A stretch of 60,038 nt of DNA from Escherichia coli (GTDB taxonomy: Bacteria > Pseudomonadota > Gammaproteobacteria > Enterobacterales > Enterobacteriaceae). This document shows, one piece after another, positions 3,001 through 12,000 of this stretch. A program made the position numbers. The DNA is taken from assembly GCF_003991155.1 (NCBI RefSeq), contig NZ_CP031296.1; one strand, written 5' to 3'. Each line of letters begins with the position of its first letter. Position 1 is the stretch's first letter.

Positions 3001-6000
3001 TGTTGTGCGGCAGAAAGAAGAAAGCCCCGTAGTTAATTTTTCATTAACCCACGAGGCGATCCCAATGCTTGAACAACATCAGGATAGCCTCTTACCGCGC
3101 GTTACGCAAGGAGAAGAAGGCCATGAAACTACCGGGAAACGCCCTTATCTGGTGCGTATTAATCGTGTGCTGCACGTTGTTAATATTCACACTCCTGACC
3201 CGGAATCGCCTGTGCGAAATCCGGCTGAAGGACGGATACAGGGAGGTTACGGCAAGCATGGCTTACGAATCCGGCGGTAAGTAGCAACCCGGAGGCGGGC
3301 GAAAGCCCGCCTTTTTGGGGATGATGTGGTTCTGGCATTAAGCGCCTTTACAAAGGGGGTATTCTGTACGGATACCCCCTTTTTCCATGTATTTTCAGGA
3401 TATTAACTGGTGAATATGGTATAATTAGTCAATATGACAGCAATTATTGAGGCGAGTATGCAGCCCAAAAAAACACCCGTGATTGTGGTCAAAAAACGCC
3501 GCGTTCTGGTCATGCCAGAAAATCCTGTGGTGAATGAAAAGCCGCAGGAAGTACAAAAATCAGCAGTTAATGAAAACAAGAAAGTACAGAAGAAAGATGC
3601 TGTAGCAGAGAAAACACGTAAAAAGCAGCCTCAGCCCTGGTATTTGAAAAAACAAATCACTTTTCCCCCAAAATATCCGAAAGAATATTTTGAAAAGTGT
3701 TTCAATAAAGTTCGTGCTGTTTTTCCTGAACTATGGACAGACGAAAAAAAGAACTTGCCCCTGAAAAGCGGGATTCTCCAGGACGTTGAGAAATACCTGG
3801 CGGATAACCCGGATGTGGATCTGACGATTGAAGAGTGGAATTGTGCGGTTCAGGTGATGACGTTCCGGTGGCAATATCTTCAGAATTGTACTGTACCAGG
3901 CGCAACACGTTACGACCTTTACGGGAAACCTGCTGGTACAGTAAAAAAAGCACACGCAACTTATGCGCAACTGGTTCTCGATGCCCGTAAGAAAGCCAGC
4001 GAGAAGAAACAATTAAAACGTAAGGGATAAAGCCCCGAAGGGCTTTATCATTTCAGCCTGGCTGACTGTAGAATCCAGTGATTTTTTCCGTTTTCGTCCA
4101 GGCCGTGTTCGTAAGCTGCAAGAGCCGCTTTCATTATTGCTGTTTTTGTCTGGCCTGTTCGCAGTGCTTCCCGTTCCAGAATATCTTCGTAAACGTCCCC
4201 AAGCCGGACATTGGTCACTTTAGTTGCTCCCGATTTTTTGCGGGTAGCTTCATTGATGAATCGGGCTGTGTCTGCATTGGTTTGTTCTGTTTTTTGTCCT
4301 GGTATTACCGGAGTTTTCAAGTCAAGAGCCATTATATCACCTTTCGTGTGTTACATTAGCTTTACTGTGTAAAGTTAATGATGTAAAGCTGTCGTATTAC
4401 ATCCATTAGGGATTGATGCCTAACTCTTGCGCCAAAAGCTCTATTTGTGCTTTAGCTGTAGAAAGGCTGGATGCGCGACGTACATCATGAACGCCAGCGC
4501 CTTCATTACAGGCCGCTTCAAAAATATCTAAATCTGAAATACGTGTACGAAGTGGCTGTATCCACACCGGGTTCTCCCGGAGTAACTTGTCGAGATCAAT
4601 CGCTGCTTTTCTGTGGCGTGGTTTTGTCGTGTTAATTCTCGTGAAAAGTACCCAGGGTTGCAGGTCTGGATTGATCTGTTGAGCTGTGCGAACTTTTTCT
4701 GTTACATGAGTCAGCGTTTCTGCTTCGAAATCTGAAGACGGCTTAACGAGAGTAAGCAGAATGTCAGCTACAGTTAAGGCACTGCGAAATTCCTTGCTGT
4801 CATGCCCTGGACAGTCAATGATCAGCACTTCACATATTTTTTTCAGGCGCTTAATGACTTCTGATACATCGCCATACTCTTCATAAACAGGAACCGGTAA
4901 TAAGCCATTCTGCTTTCTTTTTTCGTTCCAGCTAAGAATATCATTGTTTTTATCGGTCTTCAGAATGATGACCGTTCGTGAATTATTTACCAGATAAGAA
5001 GCCAGGTTTGTTGCTGTGGTGCTTTTTCCTACACCGCCTTTATCTGATGCGACAAGTAATGCTCTCCCCATAGAAACCTCGGATATACAGTGTAAAGGTT
5101 TATTTGTCTTTACATTGTATTCATTATAGTTACGTTGTAAAGATGTTCGTGTCTTTACAATGTAATTGTTTTTTGCGCTTTACATTGTGTGTATGTTACA
5201 GGGTAACTTTTCAGGATGCGATTTTGCCTGGTGTGTTGTTGCGCCCGTAGCTCGCTGACGCTCACACGCGCAGTACAGCGCCCCGCCCTGCTGCAATGCA
5301 CCAGGACGGCGTAAACTCGCTGGCGCTCGCGCTAACTGCGGCATTCTGCGGCGCAAATCAGCATGATCATGGCCTGTCAGTCCGTTGGGCTTTGCAGGGT
5401 GAAGGGATGGCCCTGTGCATCCTGGTATGTTCGTCAGCGGCTGCGCCGCGCTTCGGGGCGATGTGGCCCCGCTGCTCCCTGGTATTTTCTTTCGCCCCTT
5501 CTATGCCCTGCCGGGCATTGCATGAATGTAAATATTTGTATTTAACGATATTTATTTTAAAGAAAGGAGGAAAAAATACTTGATAATAGGTCAGTTCTGA
5601 CCTATTATAAACACATCGAGAGGGGATGGTCCCCAATCACCAAAGCCGCTCAGCGGCAGGAGCTTAAAAATGGAAAACCACGCCAAATTTGTTGCTACTG
5701 AAATTCTTAATCAGCTTGGTGGAAACCGCTTTATTGCTATGACAGGCGCAAAGAACTTTGCCTGTTTTGATGAAAATGGTGAGTCTGGTCTTTGCTTTCG
5801 TTTACCTTCAAATTTTGCAATGAAGGGAATTAATTTGGTTAAAATCAAATTAACCTTCTCTGATACATACCTGGTGACATTTTCCCGTGTCTGTGGAGCT
5901 ACAGTAAAAGAAATATCAAAATTTGATAATATTTATTGTGATCAGCTTGAATGTTTATTTAATGAACAAACCGGACTTGCAACCAGATTGTAATTTTTAA

Positions 6001-9000: not shown

Positions 9001-12000
9001 AGAATTGTAAGGACGGCTACACCATCAAGACGAAACGTTGATATAAAGGAATGCGCGACCACTCCAATAATTGCCAAGCAGAGACATAAATAAATGAAGA
9101 CGTTTTTGTTGCGTTGTTTTTTTTGTGCGCGATCATGATCATCTATGATTGCCAGTATCTTTTCTGGGGTTGGTTGAGCCATTTTTTTTCCTTATCAGGG
9201 ACACGGAGTGTTTAATTACATAGCTTTACATTGTAAAGCTATGTTTGTCTTTACGATGTAAATGATGAGATGTGCAGTTAAAAGTGTCAATCAGGTATCA
9301 TATAGTAAAACACTATATGATTTTCTATGTATCACATGCATAGCGATAAAACTGGATAAATGATTTACACTGTAAAGATTGAACTGTCTTTACAGTGTGT
9401 TTCATAAGTCATACGAATGAAATAATTTGCTTTTGTGTGTATGCGTGTGTATAATTGTTTTCAGGTTAGGGAGGACATATGAAATCTGCTGACCTGTTGA
9501 AAGAACTGATAGCTGCTGGTTGCGAGTTGAAACGGCATAAGGCAAGCAGTCACCAGATATGGTGGTCGCCAATAACAGGAAAAACTTTTCCTGTTCCTCA
9601 TCCTAAAAAGGACTTGCCGCTAGGTACTGTCAGATCGATCAAAAAAATGGCGGGGATTTAATCCCCGCCGACTTTGGAGGTAGCCATGTTCTTTTCTGTT
9701 GGTGTCGAAACACCGAAAGATGATCATACAGCATACGGTATCACCGTTCCGGTTTTTGATTGCTTTGATTTTGGATGTGTTTCTGCTGCTGATTCTCAGG
9801 CAGAAATACCCGCAATGGCGCGTGAAGCGATATTGGCAATCGTGGAAGAGATGGTAATAAGCGGTGCTCATTCTGTTGATGATATTCATGATGAAGGGTG
9901 TTTGACTTATTCCGCCAACCCAAATTATAACCACTGTGATAGCTGGTTTGTAATTGATGTTGATTTGTCAGAAATTGAGGGCAAACAACAACGTATTAAT
10001 ATTTCATTGCCTGATGTATTGATTCGTCGTATTGATGGATATGTGAGAGAAAGTGGTGGCGTATACAAAGATCGTAGCCATTTTCTGGCTCAGGCGGCAC
10101 GTCATGAACTTGCATATAAATAAAACTATCCCCGCGTTGTGCGGGGATTTTTTTTGATAGCTAACCGCTCGCCGCAGTCCAGCGACCGAGCATAGCGAGC
10201 GAGCGACGAGGAAGCGGAAGATCCACCGTTGCCAGGAGAAAAGCAGGTACGCACTATGCGTTCTGCCCTAGTGATGCTTTCACAAACCACGCAGCCTGAA
10301 CTATTACGCCATGAATCCAGCGCAAATCGGCATCACGATTTTCTTTTTTCATTTTTTCGCCACTTAAAGCCTTGCTTACGTGACTTTTTACCAGATTTTC
10401 GTGTAATTCTTTTGCTTCTTCAATTGTGAAACCACCAGGCAAATTTGGCGCTTCTGCTTCCAGTGATGCCAGAGCAATTTCATAAGCCCGGCGCTCAATA
10501 TTGTCTCGCACGTCCAGGCTGCCGATTCGCTCCCTGATTTCTTTAATTAGTTTCTTGTCGTCGTCGGTAAAAGTTGTCATTAGTGACTCCTTTTCATATC
10601 TATGGTTTTCTTGAATCAATTTCGTCTAGTTTGAGTTTTATATTTTGCTGGTCTGATTTTGGTAATTTTCTCATGCTCTCTTCAGTTATTTTTTTCATAT
10701 CAAGAAAAGCTCTTGCATAGAAGCGCAGGCTTGCCTCTTTTTCATGTTGTGCAACATACCAGGTTGCGCCAGAAAATGCCGCAGACAGGCATAATGTGCA
10801 CAAGGCACAAATTGCAATGGCTGTTCTTGTACTGAAGGGTTTTACAGCCTTAGATAATGACTTCAACTTTTCTTCATATAATTTGTTGTTTTTTTCCTGG
10901 TTGCGTTTAATTCCAGATATGAGTTCAATAATATCATCTGTTAATTTTTCTTTTACCTCAATACTTGTTTCTTTTAGATCGTTTTTTCCCTCTTCTACTT
11001 TTTCTTTTATTTCATTATCCAGATCGCCGCACGTCTCAACAATATTCTTGAATCTTTGAATATAGTCATTTTCTACAGATGAAACGACCTGTCTGAAGCC
11101 CTCAGACAGGGCTGTGAAGTTAGCTTGTAACTCATTGCTGAATTTTTCCTGTATCTTTTGGTTCAGAAAAATTAATGAAATAACTGGATCATCTTTTGAT
11201 ATTTTATGCCCTGTCTCCTTGAATACATCAACAATAAAATTATCAATATCTTCACTGGAAACAGCCTTTTCAGGCTGTTTTAATTCTGGCTGATTAACTG
11301 TACTCATATTATTCACCGTGTTCATCGTCATAGATGCTATCTAATTGTTTGTAAATGTCATTGAAGACTCGTTTTAATCGTGATTTAGCCATTAATCCAA
11401 AATGGTCGGACTCAAGAGCTTCTTTCAGTGTTAGTGATTTTTCTGTTAGCTCTTTGATGTCAGAGGCAAAGGCATCACTTTTTCTGTCCTGAATAACCAC
11501 AACGCCAGCGATTACATCCTTGTTTTTTTCAATGAATTTAGTTTCTATTAATGGGATATTTTCAAGTGCTGGAATACCCTGAAATTCATTTATCCAGACA
11601 ATAAGTTTTACCTTACTTCCTTTAACCAGTTCTTTCAGTTCTTCAAATCCCTGCAAGGTATCCGCAAGAGCTTGTCCACCAACGATAACAGTATGGATAT
11701 AAACGTCTTGTTCTACATCTTCAAACATGTCCATAACACAGTTATCATTGAAATACTGAATTAACGGTAAAAATGTAGATGCGCCATTGTCAATAACAAA
11801 AGTATTCTGACTATTGGTCAGCATTGATTCGAACATTGGATCGAATTTGGATTGTATTACTTTGCTGTTTTCAGTGATTTGTATCAAATCTGCATTTAAT
11901 CTTTTTACTTTAACCGTAGTTGTATTAACCGGGTCTGTGTCACCGACTACGATATTATCCATGTGATTTTCATCAATAAAGTATTGTGCCAGTATTGCGG

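What the first reader, a model, noticed from the sequence alone, without database searches (positions are those of the whole stretch)
4350..9392. TTTACAnTGTAAAG palindrome family scattered across at least six promoter-proximal sites
At least 14 copies of a cTTTACA-n-TGTAAAG palindrome cluster upstream of the parF/parG-like operon (five copies, 5088-5190), between parF and parG (4350-4400), upstream of the HicB-like gene (8217-8252), around 8700-8745, upstream of the membrane protein gene (9224-9263) and upstream of hicA (9362-9392). The array before parF looks like a centromere/operator; the other copies suggest the same protein (perhaps the RHH ParG-like protein at 4048-4332) regulates several stability loci.
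Basis: partly seen in the sequence, partly recalled or inferred. Interest (0 to 1): 0.55.

Follow-up and report, generated by a model that had tools for sequence, protein, structure and literature searches.

The report
Partition-protein binding sites scattered on IncI2 plasmid
A short DNA palindrome repeated in one 5-kb stretch of this IncI2 resistance plasmid is most likely the docking site of the plasmid's own small partition protein, marking its centromere plus extra sites beside neighbouring maintenance genes, which is a sensible but so far undescribed arrangement of a known kind.

Summary
The window is an IncI2 plasmid. The core palindrome TACRnTGTR, extended here to cTTTACAnTGTAAAg, has 16 sites, 14 of them within 5086-9399. 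A variant lies at 4360. Palindromes mostly come in pairs 25 bp apart, giving five perfect TGTAAAG-N10-CTTTAC modules and none elsewhere in 60 kb.

Homologues of the 94-aa ribbon-helix-helix (RHH) protein (25-58% identical; IncX3, IncX5, Edwardsiella and Salmonella plasmids, metagenomic contigs) nearly always follow a ~220-aa ParA. In those, the same core lies upstream of parA, between parA and the RHH gene, and often just after it.

A Salmonella plasmid uses a variant flank (TGTAAATAC) both in its par array and in extra copies. It carries near-identical hicAB without any palindrome, so HicB is not the binder.

Best reading:
- The RHH centromere-binding protein recognises all copies.
- 5083-5206 is the centromere and par operator; the predicted -35 and -10 lie inside palindromes.
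- The pairs at 8218, 9224 and 9363 are secondary sites present in most IncI2 plasmids.

Whether they regulate is unproven, because two sit well upstream of their promoters. Closest analogues are omega of pSM19035 and ParG of TP228. This is a new member of a known kind, of moderate interest.

The parts
4048..4332 (-). 94-aa ribbon-helix-helix (RHH) protein, the putative centromere-binding protein and repressor. Same protein as WP_001162371.1 of pHNSHP45.
   Evidence: Pfam RHH_1, E=0.005, residues 40-74; 12 of 34 family members give weak RHH_1 hits. AF2 model: residues 41-90 at pLDDT about 90, an extended segment followed by two helices and an extra C-terminal helix. Top PDB fold hits are all RHH proteins: CopG 1ea4 (TM 0.81), Arc, NikA, ParG. 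The gene nearly always follows a small ParA in homologous loci.
4351..4401 (.). Site A, in the parA-RHH intergenic region: palindrome CTTTACTGTGTAAAG (4360-4374), an extra TGTAAAG (4382-4388) and flanking TTACA half-sites.
   Evidence: An equivalent cluster of 2-4 sites sits in the unusually long (70-180 bp) parA-RHH spacer of every homologous locus examined. In IncX3 it overlaps a predicted promoter, TTGTAA-17-TATGAT.
4406..5071 (-). 221-aa small Walker-type ParA (type Ib, ParF-like). PGAP names it 'MipZ'.
   Evidence: NCBIfam ParA_partition 102 bits, below its cutoff. Full-length but distant match to ParF 4dzz and TP228 ParA 5u1g, E about 5e-5.
5083..5208 (.). Site B, the main array. Five palindromes at 5083, 5108, 5128, 5153 and 5178 and a weak sixth at 5196-5206, with centre spacings 25, 20, 25, 25 and 16 bp. 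Putative centromere and par operator.
   Evidence: Homologous arrays lie upstream of parA in IncX3, IncX5, Edwardsiella, Salmonella and metagenomic relatives.
5114..5141 (-). Predicted par promoter: -35 TTTACA (5141-5136), 16-nt spacer, -10 TACAAT (5119-5114). Both hexamers lie inside palindromes.
   Evidence: 10 of 12 consensus matches. Prediction only.
8218..8257 (.). Site C: a palindrome pair (8218-8232, 8243-8257) placed after a terminator and before the remnant of a second hicAB.
   Evidence: Present in 534 plasmid records, about as many as carry the RHH at 95% identity or more (526). In lineage L009 the same module precedes an intact hicA-hicB pair with its own TTGACA-17-TATAAT promoter about 100 bp downstream.
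8366..8632 (+). HicB-like remnant, truncated before its DNA-binding C-terminus. Its partner hicA and promoter are deleted in this plasmid.
   Evidence: by comparison with L009 positions 5506-6098.
8694..8749 (.). Site D: degenerate copies, with TACGnTGTA cores at 8695, 8730 and 8740 and TTTACAAGTAA at 8714. It overlaps the stop of the 147-aa gene.
   Evidence: It lacks the AAAG/CTTT flanks, so it may be a decayed site.
8739..9182 (-). 147-aa predicted membrane protein of unknown function, a candidate regulated gene.
   Evidence: No NCBIfam or Pfam match.
9224..9263 (.). Site E: a palindrome pair (9224-9238 perfect, 9249-9263) between the 147-aa gene start and its predicted promoter.
   Evidence: Predicted promoter TTGACA (9290-9285), 17 nt, CATCAT (9267-9262) on the - strand abuts it. 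Present in 518 plasmid records; 158 of these match at only 80-90% identity, the band a 13-bp-deleted copy like the one seen in L008 would fall in.
9363..9402 (.). Site F: a palindrome pair (9363-9377, 9388-9402) about 30-65 bp upstream of the -35 of the hicA promoter.
   Evidence: Present in 378 plasmid records. In L009 the module is kept while both flanks are unrelated. The hicA promoter TTGCTT (9427-9432), 17 nt, TATAAT (9450-9455) was read from the sequence and is conserved in pSA20141895.1, which has no palindrome there.
9479..10123 (+). hicA (9479-9661) and hicB (9686-10123), the toxin-antitoxin pair next to site F.
   Evidence: Studied experimentally in IncI2 plasmids in PMC11878559.

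Best explanation
The palindromes are the recognition sites of the plasmid's type Ib partition system. The 94-aa RHH protein encoded just after the small ParA binds the core TACAnTGTA as a dimer. The sites are usually arranged in pairs 25 bp apart.

- The six-site array at 5083-5208 is the centromere on which the partition complex assembles. It covers the predicted -35 and -10 of the par promoter, so it would also serve as the autoregulatory operator.
- The cluster between parA and the RHH gene is a conserved internal site that probably tunes RHH expression.
- The pairs at 8218, 9224 and 9363, and the decayed set at 8694, are secondary sites kept in the IncI2 backbone. They tie the same protein to neighbouring maintenance and leading-region cassettes.
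- Repression is plausible for the 147-aa membrane-protein gene. A role as extra partition-complex sites or as upstream modulators is plausible for the two hicAB loci.

Shown: the sites exist, are non-random, stay conserved across IncI2 lineages, and travel with the ParA/RHH pair across replicons. Inferred: binding by the RHH, centromere activity and any effect on transcription.
For: 1. Statistics and confinement to 4350-9400.
2. Eight divergent homologous loci, with the RHH 25-58% identical and different replicons and neighbours, share only the ParA/RHH pair. All carry TACAnTGTA-type arrays upstream of parA and in the parA-RHH spacer, and several have a 25-bp pair right after the RHH gene.
3. 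The flank variant co-varies within a plasmid. IncI2 uses TGTAAAG everywhere. pSA20141895.1 uses TGTAAATAC both in the par array and in extra copies near dqlB, and its RHH beta-strand differs: ISRTYRL against KVTNVRL.
4. R43 and L44 of the beta-strand are invariant among the six plasmid homologues, as is the ACAnTGT core.
5. The RHH fold is supported. A conserved N-terminal M-x-LKLK-P motif and an ARFI helix fit a ParA-contacting tail.
6. The par promoter hexamers lie inside palindromes, and the promoter of the 147-aa gene abuts site E.
7. Between IncI2 lineages, substitutions fall in the central n, the spacer or the outer flanks, not in the TACA/TGTAAAG/CTTTACA letters. This has some ascertainment bias.
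8. Sites C and E are found in about as many plasmid records as the RHH itself.
9. IncX3 has one perfect extra palindrome 4.4 kb from par, beside a leading-region promoter.
Against: - No binding, stability or expression data exist. Deleting the CopG-family gene orf00050 of pHNSHP45, which by position is this RHH, had little effect on host growth or fitness (PMC8053102). A strong global repressor of a toxin operon might have shown an effect.
- Sites C and F, and the IncX3 extra site, lie 45-160 bp upstream of the -35 rather than over the promoter.
- Site E is half-deleted in L008, and about 30% of the records with site E match it at only 80-90% identity, the band such a deletion would give. Site F was found in 378 records against 526 that carry the RHH. 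These sites are therefore dispensable.
- An IncX1 plasmid has an RHH homologue with a similar beta-strand but no such sites anywhere.
- Part of the scatter could come from duplication: in L008 and L009 a copy of the par array sits at the head of a second GC-rich repeat.
Confidence: 0.65

Rival explanations
1. The RHH binds all copies, but the scattered pairs are purely additional centromere sites. They enlarge or bridge one partition complex over about 5 kb and have no effect on transcription of the neighbouring genes.
For: - Sites C and F are not over promoters.
- All copies lie within 5 kb of par.
- Relatives often have a pair directly after the RHH gene, where there is no obvious promoter.
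- pSM19035 uses three separate omega-binding regions as parS sites (PMC2441792, listed; from established knowledge).
Against: - The par array and site E overlap or abut predicted promoters.
- The IncX3 extra site sits right next to an extended -10 promoter.
- All sites are intergenic, at the heads of cassettes.
Confidence: 0.18
2. The scattered pairs are hitch-hiking copies spread by duplication and recombination between leading-region cassettes. They sit at cassette junctions and serve as recombination homology, and they are functionally neutral whether or not they are bound.
For: - In L008 and L009 a partial copy of the par array heads a second GC-rich repeat.
- In L009 module F is retained between unrelated flanks.
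- Several modules share sub-sequences that suggest common descent: B2 and C share TTACGTTGTAAAGAT, and C and F share TGTCTTTACAGTGTG.
- Site D is decayed, and site E is half-deleted in many plasmids.
Against: - Spacers differ completely between modules while the arms are kept. That is the signature of selection on the arms, not of recent duplication.
- Sites C and E occur in about as many plasmid records as the RHH.
- Independent relatives (pSA20141895.1, L017, IncX3) also have extra sites with their own flank variant.
Confidence: 0.1
3. The 40-bp modules act as strand-specific hairpins in RNA or single-stranded DNA, for example as transcript ends, stabilisers or structures formed during transfer, rather than as double-stranded protein sites.
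For: - Each module folds into a 13-16-bp hairpin.
- In all five, the + strand is more stable than the - strand (-13 to -18.5 against -7 to -15 kcal/mol), because every arm mismatch is a G-T wobble on the + strand.
- All TACG variants read on the + strand.
- Two or three modules are followed by T-rich tracts and were flagged as terminator-like.
Against: - The asymmetry rests on about three independent variants, since the modules are related.
- It is not seen in IncX3, where one arm mismatch is G-A (sequence).
- The arrays of relatives are not hairpin-like overall, with a 36-bp period and mixed orientations.
- The inferred transferred strand is the - strand, which is the weaker folder. This is inferred from gene order.
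- The family-wide link is to the ParA/RHH genes, not to any transcript.
Confidence: 0.04
4. A different protein binds the palindromes: HicB, the Xre-like protein at 6867-7118, or a host factor such as TyrR, whose half-sites are also TGTAAA and TTTACA.
For: - HicB carries a DNA-binding C-terminus, and one site precedes hicA.
- The TyrR half-sites are identical in sequence (own knowledge).
Against: - pSA20141895.1 has near-identical hicAB and the same promoter but no palindrome.
- IncX3 and the metagenomic relatives have the arrays without any annotated hicAB or Xre gene nearby.
- The TyrR spacing TGTAAA-N6-TTTACA is not enriched: 47 hits against 53 expected.
- A strict scan for the module in 100,044 species genomes returned only 5 stretches, two of which are IncI2 sequence, and none was a chromosomal site in an Enterobacteriaceae host. 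There is therefore no sign of a host regulon.
Confidence: 0.03

Closest known systems
Omega (ParB) with delta (ParA) of Streptococcus plasmid pSM19035 (inc18 family)
   Same: Both have a small RHH dimer that acts as centromere-binding protein and transcriptional repressor. In both, short sites are repeated in direct and inverted orientation at several separate loci. In pSM19035 these include the par genes and a toxin-antitoxin operon, and the operator regions double as parS sites (PMC2441792 and PMC9499535, listed, plus established knowledge).
   Different: Omega binds contiguous 7-bp heptads (WATCACW). Here the unit is a 9-bp palindrome in pairs 25 or 36 bp apart. There is no detectable sequence relationship. 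The host range is Gram-negative. A conserved extra site cluster lies between parA and the RHH gene. Regulation here is not demonstrated.
ParF-ParG-parH of plasmid TP228 (type Ib partition)
   Same: Both have a small ParA without an N-terminal DNA-binding domain, followed by an RHH protein with a flexible N-terminal tail. Both have an array of repeats upstream of the operon that is centromere and operator at once (PMC3130281, listed). This ParA aligns full-length, but distantly, with ParF.
   Different: - The RHH does not match the ParG family; it gives only a weak RHH_1 hit.
- parH is made of ACTC tetramer boxes with 4-bp AT spacers, as seen in IncX1, not TACAnTGTA.
- As far as I know, ParG sites are confined to the par locus, whereas here extra pairs lie up to 4.3 kb away.
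KorB (ParB) operators of IncP-1 plasmids such as RK2
   Same: In both, a 13-bp palindrome recognised by the partition protein is scattered at many promoter-proximal and promoter-distal positions across the backbone. This gives a global regulon in which some sites act at a distance (established knowledge).
   Different: KorB is a large helix-turn-helix ParB with CTP-dependent sliding, not an RHH. It has 12 sites spread over the whole plasmid, whereas here 6 loci lie within 5 kb. The sequence differs (TTTAGCSGCTAAA).

Membership tests
Type Ib plasmid partition system (small ParA + RHH centromere-binding protein + upstream repeats) | Small Walker-type ParA (~200-220 aa) with a deviant Walker A motif and no N-terminal DNA-binding domain | tested here: met
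   221 aa with KGGVGKS near the N-terminus. NCBIfam ParA_partition 102 bits. Full-length alignment to ParF 4dzz and ParA 5u1g.
Type Ib plasmid partition system (small ParA + RHH centromere-binding protein + upstream repeats) | Partner protein with an RHH fold encoded immediately downstream | tested here: met
   Pfam RHH_1, E=0.005; 12 of 34 family members give weak hits. AF2 model, with top PDB fold matches CopG, Arc, NikA and ParG. The fold E-values are not significant on their own because the domain is small.
Type Ib plasmid partition system (small ParA + RHH centromere-binding protein + upstream repeats) | Array of repeated binding sites upstream of parA overlapping its promoter | tested here: met
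   Six palindromes at 5083-5208, and the predicted -35 and -10 lie within them. The same holds in homologous loci.
Type Ib plasmid partition system (small ParA + RHH centromere-binding protein + upstream repeats) | The protein binds the repeats and the locus stabilises a plasmid | not testable with these tools
   Needs EMSA or footprinting and stability assays. No such data were found in the literature searched.
ParG family proper (Pfam ParG, TP228-type) | Sequence membership in the ParG family and ACTC tetramer-box sites | tested here: not met
   No ParG hit in Pfam for the protein or for any of the 34 relatives. No PDB sequence match. The sites are TACAnTGTA, not ACTC boxes (one search shows the ACTC type in IncX1).
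Omega-type global regulator that is also the centromere-binding protein | The same RHH sites lie at several separate loci, including par and a toxin-antitoxin operon | tested here: met
   Sites at six loci, including par, hicAB and the remnant of a second hicAB.
Omega-type global regulator that is also the centromere-binding protein | Contiguous 7-bp heptad repeats as the binding unit | tested here: not met
   The units are 9-15-bp palindromes with 20-25 bp between centres in IncI2 and 36 bp in IncX3 and pSA20141895.1.
Omega-type global regulator that is also the centromere-binding protein | Repression of the adjacent promoters | not testable with these tools
   Only positional inference is possible. 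There is overlap at par and at the 147-aa gene, and upstream placement at both hicAB loci.
HicB autoregulatory operator | The site travels with hicAB | tested here: not met
   pSA20141895.1 has near-identical HicA and HicB and the same promoter, but no palindrome upstream.
TyrR box | TGTAAA-N6-TTTACA spacing | tested here: not met
   47 hits with up to 3 mismatches against 53 expected, and none at the modules in that register.

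The most novel reading that the evidence does not exclude
The partition RHH acts as an establishment switch. Its sites flank leading-region and addiction cassettes, so in a fresh transconjugant that holds no RHH yet, par, the 147-aa membrane protein and the hicAB loci are expressed in a burst. They are then clamped down as RHH accumulates and gathers the sites, some acting at a distance or by looping, into one partition complex. The + strand wobble bias of the modules would then reflect a second life as hairpins in single-stranded nucleic acid during transfer.
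Probability: 0.15. Interest if true: 0.65.

Novelty: new member of a known kind. Interest (0 to 1): 0.42.

Why it matters
IncI2 and IncX3 plasmids are the main vehicles of mcr-1 and blaNDM-5, yet I found no experimental description of their shared ParA/RHH partition system. Defining the recognition sequence (core TACAnTGTA in 25-bp pairs) yields three things: a candidate centromere, a candidate small regulon that includes a toxin-antitoxin operon already shown to drive plasmid competition (PMC11878559), and concrete targets for incompatibility-based or titration-based curing. It also gives a family-wide marker for annotating this par type, which PGAP currently labels 'MipZ' plus 'hypothetical protein'.

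Tried and rejected
- HicB as binder: rejected, because the same hicAB occurs without the palindrome in pSA20141895.1.
- TyrR box: rejected on spacing.
- Resolvase res site: rejected. The array is present with a serine recombinase, a tyrosine recombinase or no recombinase next to parA.
- Replication iterons: rejected. The sites are 4-9 kb from repA, and the replicons of the relatives differ.
- Known RNA family: Rfam finds only sok, at 2954-3125.
- Scan of 100,044 species genomes for the strict module: only IncI2 fragments, mis-binned into an Acinetobacter contig and a 'Bacillota' MAG, plus three isolated hairpins with no RHH or ParA nearby. This was uninformative about distribution but argues against a host regulon.
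- Heptad with 1 mismatch: too noisy to use, 231 hits against 212 expected.
- Word-based protein search: found only near-identical relatives. The profile search was needed.
- Folding the GC-rich repeat as single-stranded DNA: no significant z-score.
- Literature searches for a prior description of the motif or of the IncI2/IncX par system: nothing found. VirBR of IncX3 is an unrelated protein.
- Binding stoichiometry: I could not decide whether the unit is the palindrome centre (favoured by distant relatives) or the heptad yrTAAAG (favoured by the 11-bp direct repeats in IncX3).

Full report
**What the window is.** The region matches many ~60-kb E. coli, Salmonella and Shigella plasmids typed IncI2, MOBP, MPF_T at 99% identity or more. 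Gene order runs repA, hok/sok (Rfam sok at 2954-3125), the ProQ/FinO protein PcnR (3434-4030), then the locus of interest. A stretch of small leading-region genes follows, up to mobC and the relaxase.

**The observation.**
- TTTACANTGTAAA with up to 1 mismatch gives 7 hits against 0.32 expected, all between 4361 and 9376.
- The exact heptad CTTTACA occurs 18 times on both strands, 13 of them within 4360-9394.
- No 15-mer within three mismatches of CTTTACANTGTAAAG lies outside 4360-9402.
- The better definition, which came from comparing relatives, is the 9-bp palindrome TACRnTGTR. It has 16 distinct sites, 14 within 5086-9399.
- The palindromes are paired 25 bp centre to centre. TGTAAAG-N10-CTTTAC therefore occurs five times perfectly (5091, 5136, 8226, 9232, 9371) and once degenerately (5161). 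No perfect copy lies elsewhere in 60 kb; the only other match carries two mismatches at 41315.
- A logo of eight modules shows high information in TACAnTGTAAAG and TGTCTTTACAnTGT, a variable spacer and weaker outer flanks.
- The copies at 8694-8749 keep only the core. The set at 4351-4401 has a different layout.

**The genes.**
- The 221-aa protein (4406-5071, - strand) is a small Walker-type ParA, distantly but fully alignable with ParF.
- The 94-aa protein (4048-4332, - strand) gives a weak Pfam RHH_1 hit. Twelve of 34 relatives do the same.
- Its AF2 model is confident over residues 41-90, with an extended segment, two helices and an extra C-terminal helix. The best PDB fold matches are all ribbon-helix-helix proteins: CopG, Arc, NikA, MatP, ParG.
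- It does not match the ParG family, and no solved structure matches by sequence.
- The family is small: 49 clusters at 50% identity among 1.8 billion representatives.

**Comparative evidence, which is the main argument.** tblastn finds homologues at 40-58% identity in IncX3, IncX5, an Edwardsiella plasmid and the Salmonella IncFII/FIC plasmid pSA20141895.1. The profile search adds metagenomic relatives at 25-45% identity.
- In every case but one, the gene directly follows a 213-222-aa ParA. The neighbours otherwise differ: serine or tyrosine recombinases, Rep proteins, HigB, transposases.
- In all of these loci the region upstream of parA is packed with the same kind of sequence. IncX3 and IncX5 have yrTAAAG(AC) and CTTTAyr. 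pSA20141895.1 has GTATTTACAnTGTAAATAC. The distant relatives have GTACAATGTAC, TTTACATTGTAT and TGTGCGCACAATGTACGCACA.
- What survives across the whole family is TACAnTGTA.
- The unusually long parA-RHH spacer (70-180 bp) always holds 2-4 sites. Several relatives have a 25-bp pair right after the RHH gene.
- The only things shared by all these loci are the ParA/RHH pair and the sites. By elimination, the RHH is the binder, since the ParA has no DNA-specific domain.
- R43 and L44 of the predicted beta-strand are invariant among the six plasmid homologues, matching the invariant core. The preceding residues vary, as do the flanks.

**Are the scattered copies bound by the same protein?** Three lines of evidence bear on this.
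1. Within a plasmid, the flank variant is the same at par and at the extra copies. IncI2 uses TGTAAAG at all loci. pSA20141895.1 uses TGTAAATAC at its par array, in the spacer, after the RHH gene and at two palindromes near the dqlB type I toxin gene. It has no TGTAAAGAC at all.
2. pSA20141895.1 also carries hicAB nearly identical to the window's, with the same TTGCyT-17-TATAAT promoter, but no palindrome upstream. The palindrome before hicA in IncI2 therefore does not belong to hicAB, and HicB is not the binder.
3. IncX3 has a perfect CTTTACAaTGTAAAG 4.4 kb from par, next to an extended -10 promoter of a DnaJ-domain leading-region gene.

The TyrR-box spacing is not enriched. A scan of 100,044 species genomes for the strict module returned only 5 stretches, two of them IncI2 sequence and none a chromosomal site in an Enterobacteriaceae host.

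**Conservation within IncI2.**
- Blast of 61-66-bp pieces finds site C in 534 plasmid records, site E in 518 and site F in 378. The RHH at 95% identity or more is found in 526.
- In L008, site E has lost its right half through a 13-bp deletion. 158 records match site E at only 80-90% identity, the band such a copy would fall in.
- Other lineages have more modules: a partial copy of the par array before a second GC-rich repeat, one before an orphan hicB, and one before a short terminator-ended unit.
- Between lineages, the substitutions I could see fall in the central n, the spacer or the outer flanks. My extraction required intact arms, so this is suggestive only.
- In L009, module F is kept although both flanks are unrelated. 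That fits either selection or a role as recombination homology.

**Position relative to promoters (predictions only).**
- The best par promoter candidate on the - strand is TTTACA (5141-5136), 16 nt, TACAAT (5119-5114). Both hexamers lie inside palindromes, so occupancy would autorepress.
- For the 147-aa membrane-protein gene, TTGACA (9290-9285), 17 nt, CATCAT (9267-9262) abuts site E, which would cover about +1 to +35.
- For hicA, the promoter is TTGCTT (9427-9432), 17 nt, TATAAT (9450-9455). It places site F at about -65 to -95 from the start point.
- In L009 the intact second hicAB has TTGACA-17-TATAAT about 100 bp downstream of module C.
- So two loci fit simple repression and two do not. 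E and F are 139 bp apart and bracket the promoter of the 147-aa gene. Looping is conceivable but untested.

**Literature.** I found no description of the motif or of this par family.
- The PcnR study deleted orf00050, a 'CopG family' gene of pHNSHP45. By position next to pcnR this is the same RHH. The authors saw little effect on host growth or fitness (PMC8053102). Stability and expression were not reported in the passages I read.
- The IncI2 hicAB study (PMC11878559) maps start sites and an internal terminator. A term search of its main text for 'palindrom', 'operator', 'EMSA' and 'inverted repeat' found nothing, so it does not appear to discuss these sites.

**Verdict.** The pattern is real. 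It is best explained as the site family of an uncharacterised type Ib partition RHH protein, with a main centromere/operator array, a conserved internal site, and secondary sites at neighbouring maintenance cassettes. In logic it resembles omega of pSM19035, and more loosely KorB of RK2. In gene organisation it resembles ParFG of TP228. It is not a sequence member of any of these.
- Confidence that the RHH binds these sites: about 0.8.
- Confidence that 5083-5208 is the centromere and operator: about 0.75.
- Confidence that the scattered pairs regulate adjacent genes: about 0.4.

**Unexplained.**
- The IncX1 homologue sits after a genuine ParA-ParG pair. It lacks the family's N-terminal motifs, and its plasmid has no such sites.
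- In the IncI2 modules, every arm mismatch is a G-T wobble on the + strand. The + strand hairpins are therefore 3-7 kcal/mol more stable than those of the - strand in all five modules. The variants are few and related by descent, so I treat this as a lead rather than a finding.

Noticed in passing
window 5225-5672 and 7236-7670; partial copy 8285-8326: Two ~430-bp GC-rich direct repeats (93-98% identical) plus a 42-bp partial third copy precede small + strand genes in what gene order suggests is the conjugative leading region. A related element precedes the DnaJ-domain gene in IncX3 (L010 1060-1340). They may be single-strand promoter (Frpo/ssi-like) elements, but single-stranded DNA folding gave no significant z-score.
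   Followed up: partly
window 5573-5667, 6245-6339, 7571-7665: A second, unrelated operator-like family occurs in three 95-bp repeats. Each holds a promoter-like TTGATA-17-TATTAT whose spacer is a perfect palindrome, AATAGGTCA-N4-TGACCTATT, followed by a conserved leader (gagaggggatggtcccc...gccgctcagcggcaggag) before small ORFs at 5670, 6341 and 7662. Lineage L009 has ATACATCTA-N2-TAGATGTAT in the same position. The binder is unknown; the Xre-like protein at 6867-7118 is a candidate.
   Followed up: partly
window 8366-8632 compared with L009 5443-6098: The HicB-like ORF is a deletion remnant. Other IncI2 lineages have an intact second hicA-hicB pair with a strong TTGACA-17-TATAAT promoter here. 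This plasmid has lost hicA, the promoter and the C-terminal DNA-binding part of HicB. About 87%-identical copies are in IncX4 plasmids.
   Followed up: partly
L009 7216-7345: In another IncI2 lineage, a palindrome module is followed within ~100 bp by a GC-rich hairpin and a T-run (ccccgcgttgtgcgggg atttttttt). This looks like a short terminator-ended transcription unit, possibly a small RNA. It is absent from the window.
   Followed up: no
L013 / L006 (IncX1 pCFSAN000445, record 7201-7512): A homologue of the RHH (46% identical) sits downstream of a genuine ParA-ParG pair, whose upstream region has ACTCA boxes. It lacks the family's N-terminal LKLK-P and ARFI motifs, and the whole plasmid has no TACAnTGTA cluster. 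It may be an orphan, or a regulator with changed specificity.
   Followed up: partly
window modules 5083-5122, 5128-5167, 8218-8257, 9224-9263, 9363-9402: Every mismatch between the two arms of a module is a G-T wobble on the + strand, and all TACG variants read on the + strand. The + strand hairpins are therefore always more stable than the - strand ones. The variants are few and related by descent.
   Followed up: partly
L022 (Acinetobacter idrijaensis contig JQCU01000064.1) and L023 ('Bacillota' MAG JAEWTL010000067.1): These contigs carry sequences that match IncI2 sites C and F, and the L009-type duplicate of the par array, near-identically. They look like IncI2 plasmid fragments mis-assigned or contaminating those assemblies.
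   Followed up: no
window 9649-9669: The GC-rich hairpin with a T-run between hicA and hicB fits the position and description of the internal terminator reported for IncI2 hicAB in PMC11878559, which raises the toxin-to-antitoxin ratio.
   Followed up: partly
window 7131-7167: A short ORF starting at ATG 7131 runs into a stop codon at 7165-7167 (…acggaaTAAgctac…), just upstream of the second GC-rich repeat. It may be a disrupted small gene.
   Followed up: no
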